DNA from: a virus
DNA length: 23,936 nt
UHGV virus genome: UHGV-0360783
Strand: one strand, 5' to 3'
Position numbers and translations under genes: made by a program. Position 1 is the first letter of the stretch; every line of letters starts with the position of its first letter. The notes under the pieces were generated by a model. The model was not told where the DNA came from and ran no database searches. It was given only the letters and a program-made list of their open reading frames with translations. Of this stretch, positions 20,747 through 21,271 are shown one piece after another.

Positions 20747-21271
20747 ATGAAGTTATGGCCTGTGTTGACTGGCATTGCACTCTCTTTCACTCTTATAGCA
20801 TGTAAGGCCCCGACACCACCTAAAGGTGTGCAGCCGATTACAAATTTTGACGCCAACCGCTACCTCGGAAAATGGTATGAAATAGCTCGCCTCGAGAACC
20901 GGTTCGAACGTGGTCTGGAACAGGTCAGCGCTACCTATGGAAAACGGAACGACGGAGGGATTCGTGTACTTAACCGTGGATACGATCCAACGAAAAATAA
21001 ATGGAGCGAGAGCGAAGGTAAAGCATACTTTACTGGAGATACTAAAACTGCAGCGTTGAAGGTTTCGTTTTTTGGCCCCTTCTATGGTGGCTATAATGTA
21101 ATCAAACTGGATGATGAGTATAAGTATGCTCTTGTCAGTGGTCCGAACAGAGAATACCTATGGATTCTGGCAAGGACCCCAACTATTCCAGATAAAGTAA
21201 AAGCAGACTATGTGCGAACCGCTCAAAAGTTGGGATTCAATGTCAATGAATTATTATGGGTTAAACAATAA
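20747..21271 (+). CDS. Bacterial lipocalin (Blc-like) outer-membrane lipoprotein
   Basis: 174-aa ORF MKLWPVLTGIALSFTLIACKAPTPPKGVQPITNFDANRYLGKWYEIARLENRFERGLEQVSATYG...KVSFFGPFYGGYNVIKLDDEY...YLWILARTP... with lipobox LIAC and the lipocalin motifs of E. coli Blc (GxWYEIAR, SFFGPFYGGYNVI). AGGA RBS. Divergent from the DUF523 gene. Confidence 0.88.
   Translation: MKLWPVLTGIALSFTLIACKAPTPPKGVQPITNFDANRYLGKWYEIARLENRFERGLEQVSATYGKRNDGGIRVLNRGYDPTKNKWSESEGKAYFTGDTKTAALKVSFFGPFYGGYNVIKLDDEYKYALVSGPNREYLWILARTPTIPDKVKADYVRTAQKLGFNVNELLWVKQ

What the first reader, a model, noticed from the sequence alone, without database searches (positions are those of the whole stretch)
20747..21271. Prophage-encoded Blc-like lipocalin lipoprotein, antisense to the late operon
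The protein has a lipobox and the lipocalin motifs of E. coli Blc but is clearly a divergent paralog. It lies on the strand opposite the late genes, like bor, so it would be expressed from its own promoter in the lysogen. Prophage outer-membrane lipoproteins such as Bor, Lom and Cor act in serum resistance, adhesion or superinfection exclusion, so a lipid-binding envelope protein here is a candidate lysogenic conversion or exclusion factor.
Basis: partly seen in the sequence, partly recalled or inferred. Interest (0 to 1): 0.55.

Follow-up and report, generated by a model that had tools for sequence, protein, structure and literature searches.

The report
Prophage-carried Blc lipocalin lipoprotein gene
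This lambda-like E. coli prophage carries an extra outer-membrane lipid-binding lipoprotein gene of the Blc family, a real and common cargo gene that is already annotated and described, but whose benefit to the host has never been tested.

Summary
Bases 20747-21271 (+) encode a 174-aa Blc-family lipoprotein. It has a lipobox (LIAC, Cys19), passes NCBIfam's Blc model, and is 63% identical to E. coli Blc without gaps. It lies between antiterminator Q with its terminator and the lysis genes, antisense to the late operon.

It is not new. RefSeq and phage records annotate it, a 2020 paper lists blc as a moron in over half of 19 infant-gut lambda phages, and 1045 of 5426 complete E. coli genomes carry it.

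What I add:
- It belongs to a second Blc lineage found in Enterobacter, Leclercia, Buttiauxella and Cedecea, not to the ampC-linked lineage of E. coli blc.
- In most of those chromosomes, blc sits back-to-back with a MerR-like regulator, a transthyretin-like gene and rudS (a tRNA 4-thiouridine desulfidase).
- The phage cassette keeps blc and rudS and lacks the regulator.
- The gene is under strong purifying selection (dN/dS 0.065).
- The identical protein was detected by proteomics in an E. coli isolate and rose 2-3-fold after meropenem.

The most likely role is a lysogen-expressed envelope lipid-binding protein. Nothing supports superinfection exclusion.

The parts
20747..21271 (+). blc-like gene. 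It encodes a 174-aa Blc-family outer-membrane lipoprotein precursor, identical to RefSeq WP_000780581.1.
20747..20803 (+). Type II signal peptide ending in the lipobox L16-I17-A18-C19 (codons at 20792-20803). Lys at +2 predicts outer-membrane sorting.
   Evidence: Read from the sequence. The lipobox is kept in almost all homologues compared.
20651..20746 (+). Conserved blc-proximal half of the divergent intergenic region. It holds a candidate -10 CATACT at 20709-20714, aligned with the CTACACTTA box of chromosomal homologues; a second box TAATATAGTATG at 20659-20670; and AGGA at 20737-20740. No promoter has been mapped.
   Evidence: Alignment A1. Five-allele footprint: 6.2% variable sites here against 18.8% in 20555-20650. 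The consensus scan found no + strand sigma-70 site.
21298..21328 (-). Intrinsic terminator of the tR' kind downstream of Q: a 9-bp stem followed by a U7 run. It ends 27 nt from the blc stop codon. Read on the + strand the hairpin has no U tract.
   Evidence: z = -4.45; z = -0.5
21427..21804 (-). Antiterminator Q (PF06530). The late promoter is inferred to lie between its stop codon and the terminator; its position is not resolved.
19595..20554 (-). rudS (TudS + DUF1722, 319 aa; Cys12, Cys44 and Cys110 kept). It encodes a tRNA 4-thiouridine desulfidase, is 93% identical to the experimentally tested RudS_vir of phage 1H12, runs sense to the late operon and is divergent from blc.
18513..19243 (-). 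AraC-family (YdeO/GadX-like) regulator gene, frameshifted in this window and intact (243 aa) in other carriers. About 31-33% GC.
17154..18324 (-). Lysis cassette essD-rrrD-rzpD. Together with Q it brackets the cargo slot.

Best explanation
The gene encodes a working Blc-type lipocalin. The precursor is exported by Sec, lipidated at Cys19 and sorted by Lol to the inner leaflet of the outer membrane. There its calyx binds lysophospholipids or fatty acids, as E. coli Blc does.

It is the lysogen-expressed half of a two-gene cargo cassette (blc plus rudS). A lambdoid phage picked this cassette up from an enterobacterial locus of the form blc <-> MerR-like regulator - transthyretin-like gene - rudS, and the regulator was lost. 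The cassette sits in the moron slot between Q/tR' and the holin. It travels with that Q-lysis module between DLP12-, lambda- and Qin-type prophage backbones.

Blc is transcribed from its own promoter, convergent with the late transcript. It is therefore made in the prophage state, responds to envelope stress, and should be opposed by Q-antiterminated late transcription running through it in antisense. Its benefit is to the host (a second, differently regulated dose of an envelope lipid-buffering protein), not to virion production.

Shown: family, fold, lipobox, position, strand, origin, purifying selection, prevalence, and detection of the protein.
Inferred: ligand, localisation, promoter, and the fitness effect.
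For: Family and fold. R52, reported to lie at the entrance of the LPE-binding pocket (PMC7026729), is invariant. Only 7 conservative departures from the lineage consensus were found.

Origin:
- 10 genome loci (L006-L015) and 3 metagenome contigs (L004, L085, L086) hold a 74-82% identical blc within about 1.5 kb of a 70-73% identical rudS, in divergent orientation. Cedecea (L003) has the same regulator next to a different gene cluster.
- The same locus sits on a 304-kb E. coli plasmid.
- The NJ tree places the phage copy inside this lineage and away from the frd-ampC-blc-sugE lineage.

Selection: dN/dS is 0.065 between phage alleles with dS 0.19. The 96 bp upstream of blc are as conserved as the coding sequence.

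Prevalence and mobility:
- 1045 of 5426 complete E. coli genomes carry the gene, and 953 carry the whole 3.9-kb block.
- 12 isolated lambda-like phages carry it.
- It occurs in three different prophage backbones.
- Other phages hold a porin gene in the same slot.

Expression: WP_000780581.1 rose 1.99-fold and 2.98-fold after 15 min of meropenem, alongside Spy, PspC and other outer-membrane lipoproteins (PMC13459554). In-silico trypsin digestion shows no peptide longer than FER shared with canonical Blc, so the identification is specific.

Prior description as a moron: PMC6969025.
Against: - No promoter is mapped. The consensus scan finds none on the + strand. The candidate -10 has C (window) or A (Lambda_ev087) where the chromosomal homologues have the usually essential -12 T.
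- The proteomic evidence is one study. I could not confirm that the gene lies in a prophage in that strain. A rise after a beta-lactam could partly reflect prophage replication.
- Lipid binding, lipidation and localisation are inferred from homology only.
- Lysogens already have chromosomal blc, so the gain from a second copy is unclear.
- Linkage with rudS could be historical rather than functional.
- GC3 is 41%, against 58-78% in the sampled relatives, so the actual donor is not identified.
Confidence: 0.6

Rival explanations
1. Superinfection exclusion or receptor masking. The outer-membrane lipoprotein would block a phage receptor or DNA entry, as Cor (phi80/N15) or Llp (T5) do at FhuA.
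For: It is a prophage-encoded outer-membrane lipoprotein expressed from the non-late strand, the same general class as Cor and Llp (position and strand). Mathieu et al. note that membrane proteins predominate among lambda morons.
Against: There is no sequence or family similarity to any exclusion or defence protein: no PADLOC hit, PHROG 2809 is 'unknown function', and Pfam gives only lipocalin families. The protein is a near-consensus copy of a chromosomal housekeeping-type lineage, with 7 conservative changes, so there is no sign of a new binding surface. Blc-type lipoproteins face the periplasm (general knowledge of Blc, not tested here).
Confidence: 0.06
2. Light or near-UV stress cassette. 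Blc and RudS would act together: RudS erases the UVA-sensitive tRNA 4-thiouridine, and Blc buffers lysolipids or photo-oxidised lipids in the outer membrane, giving lysogens sunlight tolerance outside the gut.
For: - RudS lowers tRNA s4U, and RudS_KT overexpression shortens the UVA-induced growth delay. The phage enzyme RudS_vir was active on tRNA (PMC11417400).
- E. coli has no RudS of its own.
- The chromosomal source locus has a MerR-like regulator with MlrA and CarH similarity. The RudS authors suggest this regulator gives light-inducible control in E. cloacae.
- In Cedecea the same regulator and blc flank a cyclopropane-fatty-acid-synthase-like / amine oxidase / DUF1365 cluster. The light-inducible LitR regulon of P. 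putida includes a furan-fatty-acid synthase, UfaM.
- A Blc-family gene is light-induced in a Chryseobacterium carotenoid cluster (PMC7064467).
Against: Every link to light is by association. The regulator is absent from the phage cassette, and its likely operator palindromes are degenerate there. More distant second-lineage blc copies (Pantoea, Kosakonia, Symbiopectobacterium) lack the rudS and MerR neighbours. No data tie any Blc to oxidised lipids in enterobacteria.
Confidence: 0.15
3. Host-directed effect. Extra Blc would change how much lysophosphatidylethanolamine the bacterium retains and so alter gut epithelial or immune responses.
For: E. coli blc deletion or the G84E variant lowers cellular LPE and activates host immunity in worms and mice (PMC7026729). 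The phage gene is common in human gut isolates.
Against: Those data concern the canonical chromosomal Blc only. The phage protein has N84 in a loop that varies within its lineage. No host-side data exist for it.
Confidence: 0.08
4. Neutral passenger. The gene is merely carried along with the Q-lysis module and gives no benefit.
For: It always travels with the same Q allele and lysis genes. The neighbouring AraC-like gene is decaying: it is frameshifted here and replaced by IS1 in strain Combat11I9. Some blc copies are truncated.
Against: dN/dS is 0.065 with dS 0.19. The upstream region is conserved. The reading frame is intact in 1045 genomes. The protein is made. A Blc-family gene was acquired independently by a Morganella phage.
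Confidence: 0.1

Closest known systems
blc moron of infant-gut lambda-like phages (Mathieu et al. 2020, PMC6969025), e.g. Escherichia phage 1H12 gp65 'Lipocalin Blc'
   Same: It is the same gene, 97% identical at protein level, in the same place between Q and rudS/holin and on the same strand.
   Different: Nothing essential differs. This window holds another allele (95% nucleotide identity) in a DLP12-site prophage.
E. coli chromosomal Blc (PDB 1QWD, 2ACO, 3MBT)
   Same: Same family, fold and length, with a lipobox at the same residues. It is 63% identical without gaps, and R52 at the pocket entrance is kept.
   Different: It belongs to a different lineage and locus (frd-ampC-blc-sugE). Residue +2 is Ser rather than Lys, and position 84 is Gly rather than Asn. 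The promoter differs.
Second-locus Blc of Enterobacter, Leclercia, Huaxiibacter, Buttiauxella, Raoultella and Cedecea, adjacent to a MerR/MlrA-like regulator, a transthyretin-like gene and rudS
   Same: These are the closest proteins (74-82% identity), with the same back-to-back arrangement with rudS and conserved upstream boxes.
   Different: The phage cassette lacks the regulator and the transthyretin-like gene. It has much lower GC3 (41% against 58-78%), so the sampled species are relatives rather than the donor.
Lambda Bor / Iss
   Same: Both are prophage-borne outer-membrane lipoproteins encoded antisense to the late operon and expressed in lysogens.
   Different: The protein families are unrelated. 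The window has its own iss at 16829-17122, downstream of the lysis genes.
Blc-family gene of Morganella phage IME1369_01
   Same: It is a Blc-family lipoprotein gene carried by a temperate phage close to the lysis genes.
   Different: It is only 54% identical, lies between the lysis genes and the small terminase subunit on the late strand, and has no rudS neighbour. It is an independent acquisition.

Membership tests
Bacterial lipocalin Blc (NCBIfam PRK10477 / Pfam PF08212) | Full-length match to the family profile above the curated cut-off | tested here: met
   316 bits against a cut-off of 267, covering residues 1-174 of a 176-position profile. Pfam Lipocalin_2 gives 7e-44.
Bacterial lipocalin Blc (NCBIfam PRK10477 / Pfam PF08212) | Eight-stranded lipocalin barrel with a C-terminal helix | tested here: met
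   The AF2 model has 8 strands plus helix 149-161. Target-normalised TM is 0.86-0.94 and rmsd 1.3-1.9 A to 3MBT, 1QWD and 2ACO. The model's mean pLDDT is only 76, with low confidence at residues 97-113.
Bacterial lipocalin Blc (NCBIfam PRK10477 / Pfam PF08212) | Type II signal peptide with a lipobox Cys and a non-Asp +2 residue (outer-membrane lipoprotein) | tested here: met
   The sequence has LIAC with Cys19 and Lys20, and the motif is conserved in homologues. This is a sequence rule only; actual lipidation was not tested.
Bacterial lipocalin Blc (NCBIfam PRK10477 / Pfam PF08212) | Binds lysophospholipids or fatty acids in the calyx | not testable with these tools
   Inferred from 63% gapless identity to E. 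coli Blc and retention of R52.
Bacterial lipocalin Blc (NCBIfam PRK10477 / Pfam PF08212) | RpoS-dependent stationary-phase promoter, as described for E. coli blc (my recollection of Bishop et al. 1995, not checked here) | tested here: inconclusive
   Chromosomal relatives have CTACACTTA about 40 nt before the ATG. The phage alleles have (C/A)ATACTTA there, with the -12 T lost.
Canonical blc orthologue group (frd-ampC-blc-sugE locus) | Orthology with E. coli blc by phylogeny and synteny | tested here: not met
   The protein groups with the second-locus lineage. Copies at the canonical locus are 57-64% identical. Buttiauxella izardii carries both kinds.
Phage moron | Extra gene in a slot that is empty or differently filled in related phages, with deviant base composition | tested here: met
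   The Q-holin interval holds a porin gene in phages ev243 and mEp332. The cassette is 42-44% GC, against 52-60% in the phage's packaging, head and tail genes.
Phage moron | Own promoter and terminator, with expression in the lysogen | tested here: inconclusive
   No promoter was mapped. The only nearby hairpin is the tR'-type terminator, which lacks a U tract on the blc strand. The protein was detected in a carrier strain, but I did not verify that strain's prophage context.
Superinfection-exclusion lipoproteins (Cor, Llp) and known defence systems | Sequence or profile similarity to a known exclusion or defence protein | tested here: not met
   PADLOC gives no hit at E <= 0.01. PHROGs gives only phrog_2809, of unknown function.

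The most novel reading that the evidence does not exclude
The blc-rudS pair is a phage-borne near-UV/photo-oxidative stress cassette. RudS lies sense to the late operon and may also be read from the orphaned promoter of the lost MerR-like gene. It would strip the UVA-sensitive 4-thiouridine from host tRNA, so that translation continues after the light exposure that also induces the prophage. Blc, made in the lysogen, would buffer lysophospholipids or oxidised lipids in the outer membrane. This would be a new kind of lysogenic conversion, sunlight and envelope-stress tolerance, carried by about a fifth of E. coli genomes.
Probability: 0.15. Interest if true: 0.55.

Novelty: already known. Interest (0 to 1): 0.3.

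Why it matters
About 19% of complete E. coli genomes, and many gut lambda-like phages, carry this gene. It is made as protein and it rises with envelope-stress proteins after a carbapenem. Even so, it is routinely mistaken for chromosomal Blc, and no one has tested its function.

Three points give concrete experiments:
- It belongs to a separate Blc lineage.
- It arrived together with the tRNA-thiouridine eraser RudS.
- It has lost its native MerR-like regulator.

These suggest testing envelope, beta-lactam and light stress in isogenic lysogens. They also give a practical warning for proteomic and metagenomic studies of 'blc' variants: two paralogues coexist in many strains.

Tried and rejected
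- Promoter search. The sigma-70 consensus scan found nothing on the + strand upstream of blc. I fell back on comparative footprinting, which gives candidates only.
- Rfam on the region and on the whole window gave nothing at gathering score, only a sub-threshold hit on the terminator hairpin. No tRNAs were found.
- Donor search. The closest proteins (82%) all come from high-GC Enterobacter-like contigs with the regulator present. No low-GC donor lacking the regulator turned up.
- Wider synteny. A relaxed tblastn for rudS, the MerR-like gene and the fatty-acid cluster around more distant Blc homologues found the linkage only in the closest clade plus one Syntrophorhabdaceae contig. I therefore do not claim a general Blc-RudS association.
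- Literature. Searches on 'lipocalin' plus 'moron' returned only clinical NGAL papers. The P. putida LitR paper (PMC7515241) is not held. The proteomics paper's supplements are not held, and it gives no genome accession. I therefore could not check canonical Blc, the prophage late proteins, or the gene's context in CCUG 70745.
- Neofunctionalisation. I looked for phage-specific substitutions at conserved positions and found only 7, all conservative. This idea is rejected.
- Defence or exclusion function. Rejected for lack of any profile match.

Full report
**1. The observation**

The window is a lambdoid prophage read on the - strand: tail, head, portal and terminase genes, then nohD, rzpD-rrrD-essD, and upstream Q, ylcG, rusA, ybcO, ninE and ybcN. 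It is 100% identical over the tested 3.9 kb to the DLP12-site prophage of E. coli GF131.

At 20747-21271 on the + strand there is a 174-aa ORF with an ATG start and AGGA six bases upstream. The family evidence is:
- Pfam Lipocalin_2, 7e-44.
- NCBIfam 'outer membrane lipoprotein Blc', 316 bits against a cut-off of 267.
- A gapless match to the E. coli Blc crystal structures (E down to 4e-69), with 63.2% identity to the mature protein.
- An AlphaFold model (mean pLDDT 76, low in the signal peptide and at residues 97-113) that superposes on 3MBT, 1QWD and 2ACO at target-normalised TM 0.86-0.94 and rmsd 1.3-1.9 A.

The N-terminus is M-K, a hydrophobic stretch, then L-I-A-C19-K. That is a canonical lipobox with a non-Asp +2 residue, and the motif is kept in almost all homologues compared.

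**2. Setting in the phage**

Q ends at 21427. About 100 nt downstream on the - strand lies a strong intrinsic terminator: 21328-21305 plus a U7 run, -19.1 kcal/mol, z = -4.45. This is the arrangement expected for a late promoter with its tR'-type terminator.

The lipocalin gene's stop codon is 27 nt from that terminator, and the gene converges on it. Next, on the late strand, come:
- a 319-aa TudS+DUF1722 gene (19595-20554);
- an AraC-family gene that is frameshifted here (18513-19243);
- the holin.

Q-antiterminated late transcription must therefore cross the lipocalin gene in antisense to reach the lysis genes. That step is an inference from gene order.

On the lipocalin strand the shared hairpin has no U tract, so where the blc transcript ends is unknown. 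Related phages hold a porin gene in the same Q-holin slot. The cassette is 42-44% GC, against 52-60% for the packaging, head and tail genes. This is a typical moron slot.

**3. How common, and already described**

- The gene is present at 95% identity or more, over at least 80% of its length, in 1045 of 5426 complete E. coli genomes. 953 genomes hold the whole 3.9-kb Q-to-holin block.
- Twelve isolated lambda-like phages carry it, where it is annotated 'Lipocalin Blc'.
- It occurs in DLP12-type, lambda nin-type and Qin-type backbones, always with the same Q family and lysis genes.
- Mathieu et al. [quoted passage not shown]
- PHROGs files it as phrog_2809, function unknown.

**4. Where it came from**

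The closest non-E. coli proteins are 74-82% identical. They are chromosomal Blc copies of Enterobacter species, Leclercia, Huaxiibacter, Buttiauxella, Raoultella, Kosakonia and Cedecea. The classical orthologues at the frd-(ampC)-blc-sugE-efp locus (E. coli, Salmonella, Citrobacter, Atlantibacter) are only 57-64% identical. Buttiauxella izardii has one copy of each kind. A neighbour-joining tree puts the phage protein inside the second lineage.

In 10 genome loci and 3 metagenome contigs of that lineage, blc is transcribed divergently from three genes:
- a 241-aa MerR-family regulator with MlrA-type helical and C-terminal domains;
- usually a transthyretin/hydroxyisourate-hydrolase-like gene;
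- a 319-aa TudS+DUF1722 gene that is 70-73% identical to the window's.

The same locus, with a truncated blc, sits on a 304-kb E. coli plasmid. In Cedecea the regulator and blc instead flank a SnoaL / SDR / amine oxidase / DUF1365 / cyclopropane-fatty-acid-synthase-like cluster.

The phage cassette is therefore blc plus its chromosomal neighbour, without the regulator. Its 192-bp intergenic region joins a blc-proximal part that aligns with the chromosomal blc upstream region to a rudS-proximal part that aligns only weakly with the chromosomal rudS upstream region.

Synonymous sites are saturated against all sampled relatives. GC3 is 41% against 58-78%, so the true donor is unsampled or the cassette has drifted for a long time in phages.

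**5. The neighbour is RudS**

TudS-DUF1722 fusions were shown in 2024 to remove 4-thiouridine from tRNA. [quoted passage not shown] That phage is among my hits. Its gp65 is the lipocalin, and its gp66 is 93% identical to the window's protein, which keeps Cys12, Cys44 and Cys110.

The paper states that E. coli has no RudS of its own, that overexpressed RudS shortens the UVA-induced growth delay, and that the MerR-family gene next to rudS in E. cloacae suggests light-inducible control.

**6. Is the lipocalin functional and expressed?**

- Two phage alleles that differ at 4.8% of nucleotides give dS 0.19 and dN 0.012, so dN/dS is 0.065.
- Across five alleles, the 96 bp upstream of blc vary at 6.2% of sites. 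That equals the rate in the coding sequence and is a third of the rate in the rudS-proximal half.
- Against 29 chromosomal homologues, the phage protein departs from strongly conserved residues at 7 positions only, all conservative. R52, reported to lie at the entrance of the LPE-binding pocket of E. coli Blc, is invariant. There is no sign of a new function.
- The identical protein WP_000780581.1 was quantified by TMT proteomics in mid-log E. coli CCUG 70745. It rose 1.99-fold at 128 ug/mL and 2.98-fold at 192 ug/mL meropenem after 15 min, and was grouped with Spy, PspC, IbpB and other small outer-membrane lipoproteins (PMC13459554). The authors call it Blc and do not remark on its origin.
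- A tryptic digest in silico shares no peptide longer than FER with canonical Blc, so the assignment is specific.

Caveats: this is one study, I could not check the gene's context in that strain, and prophage replication could contribute to the rise.

**7. Promoter**

Chromosomal homologues have a conserved TGCACTACACTTA about 40 nt before the ATG. This fits the sigma-S-type -10 (CTAYRCTTAA, from my knowledge of sigma-S promoters). They also have a conserved AATATACTACGAATATT palindrome nearer the regulator gene.

The phage alleles keep (C/A)ATACTTA at 20709-20716 but have lost the -12 T. They keep TAATATAGTATG at 20659-20670 but have lost the right arm of the palindrome. Read on the - strand, that second box is a TATATT -10, which could now drive rudS.

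None of this is mapped. Sigma-S dependence stays a hypothesis.

**8. Mechanism and rivals**

The best-supported reading (0.6) is a lysogen-expressed, Lol-sorted Blc-type lipid binder that adds an envelope-stress-responsive dose of Blc function. It was acquired together with rudS from a MerR-controlled stress locus.

A joint light or near-UV role with RudS is attractive but rests on association only (0.15). The linkage does not extend to more distant members of the lineage.

Exclusion (0.06) has no support: no defence or exclusion profile matches, and the protein is a near-consensus chromosomal type.

A host-directed LPE effect (0.08) is borrowed from work on canonical Blc.

A neutral passenger (0.1) is hard to square with the purifying selection and with an independent Blc acquisition by Morganella phage IME1369_01.

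**9. Verdict**

This is a real, correctly described and very common moron, and it was already known. The added value here is its lineage, its cassette partner, the lost regulator, and the evidence of selection and expression. Interest is modest.

Noticed in passing
window 19595-20554 (-): The gene divergent from blc is a RudS-type tRNA 4-thiouridine desulfidase (TudS + DUF1722, with Cys12, Cys44 and Cys110). It is 93% identical to the experimentally tested RudS_vir of phage 1H12. E. coli has no RudS of its own, so the prophage supplies a tRNA-demodifying activity. It lies sense to the late operon.
   Followed up: yes
window 18513-19243 (-): A very AT-rich (about 31-33% GC) AraC-family regulator gene lies between rudS and the holin; the best NCBIfam match is YdeO, then GadX and HilD. 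It is frameshifted here near 19124-19150, is intact (243 aa) in phages 1H12 and Lambda_ev087 and in strain ST69, and is replaced by IS1 in strain Combat11I9. Its targets are unknown.
   Followed up: partly
window 16829-17122 (+): An iss (bor-family serum-survival lipoprotein) gene lies downstream of rzpD, also antisense to the late operon. The prophage therefore carries two antisense outer-membrane lipoprotein morons.
   Followed up: no
L095 (E. coli 0H26 plasmid NZ_CP081783.1, 1-7986): A 304-kb E. coli plasmid carries the chromosomal-type locus: truncated blc <-> MerR - uraH-like - YbgA/RudS - AAA ATPase, next to integrase genes. The source locus of the phage cassette is therefore itself mobile.
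   Followed up: partly
L091 (Morganella phage IME1369_01, KY653118.1), 4965-5480: An independently acquired Blc-family lipoprotein gene (54% identity) lies between the lysis genes and the small terminase subunit, on the late strand. The same phage also carries a lipid A lauroyl acyltransferase gene.
   Followed up: partly
L005 (JARKOR010000135.1, 'Candidatus Nanosynbacter' MAG, 2113 bp): A 2.1-kb contig binned as a Nanosynbacter MAG encodes this lipocalin at 99% identity. It is almost certainly a mis-binned E. coli prophage fragment.
   Followed up: no
L003 (Cedecea lapagei contig), 1-5883: In Cedecea the MerR/MlrA-like regulator divergent from blc heads a SnoaL - SDR - amine oxidase - DUF1365 - cyclopropane-fatty-acid-synthase-like - DUF2878 cluster. 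This resembles light- or singlet-oxygen-induced fatty-acid-modification clusters described in other proteobacteria.
   Followed up: no
window 21265-21345, both strands: The tR'-type hairpin is a strong terminator only for the late strand. On the blc strand it has no U tract, so blc transcripts might read on into the late-promoter and Q region in antisense. This was not tested.
   Followed up: partly
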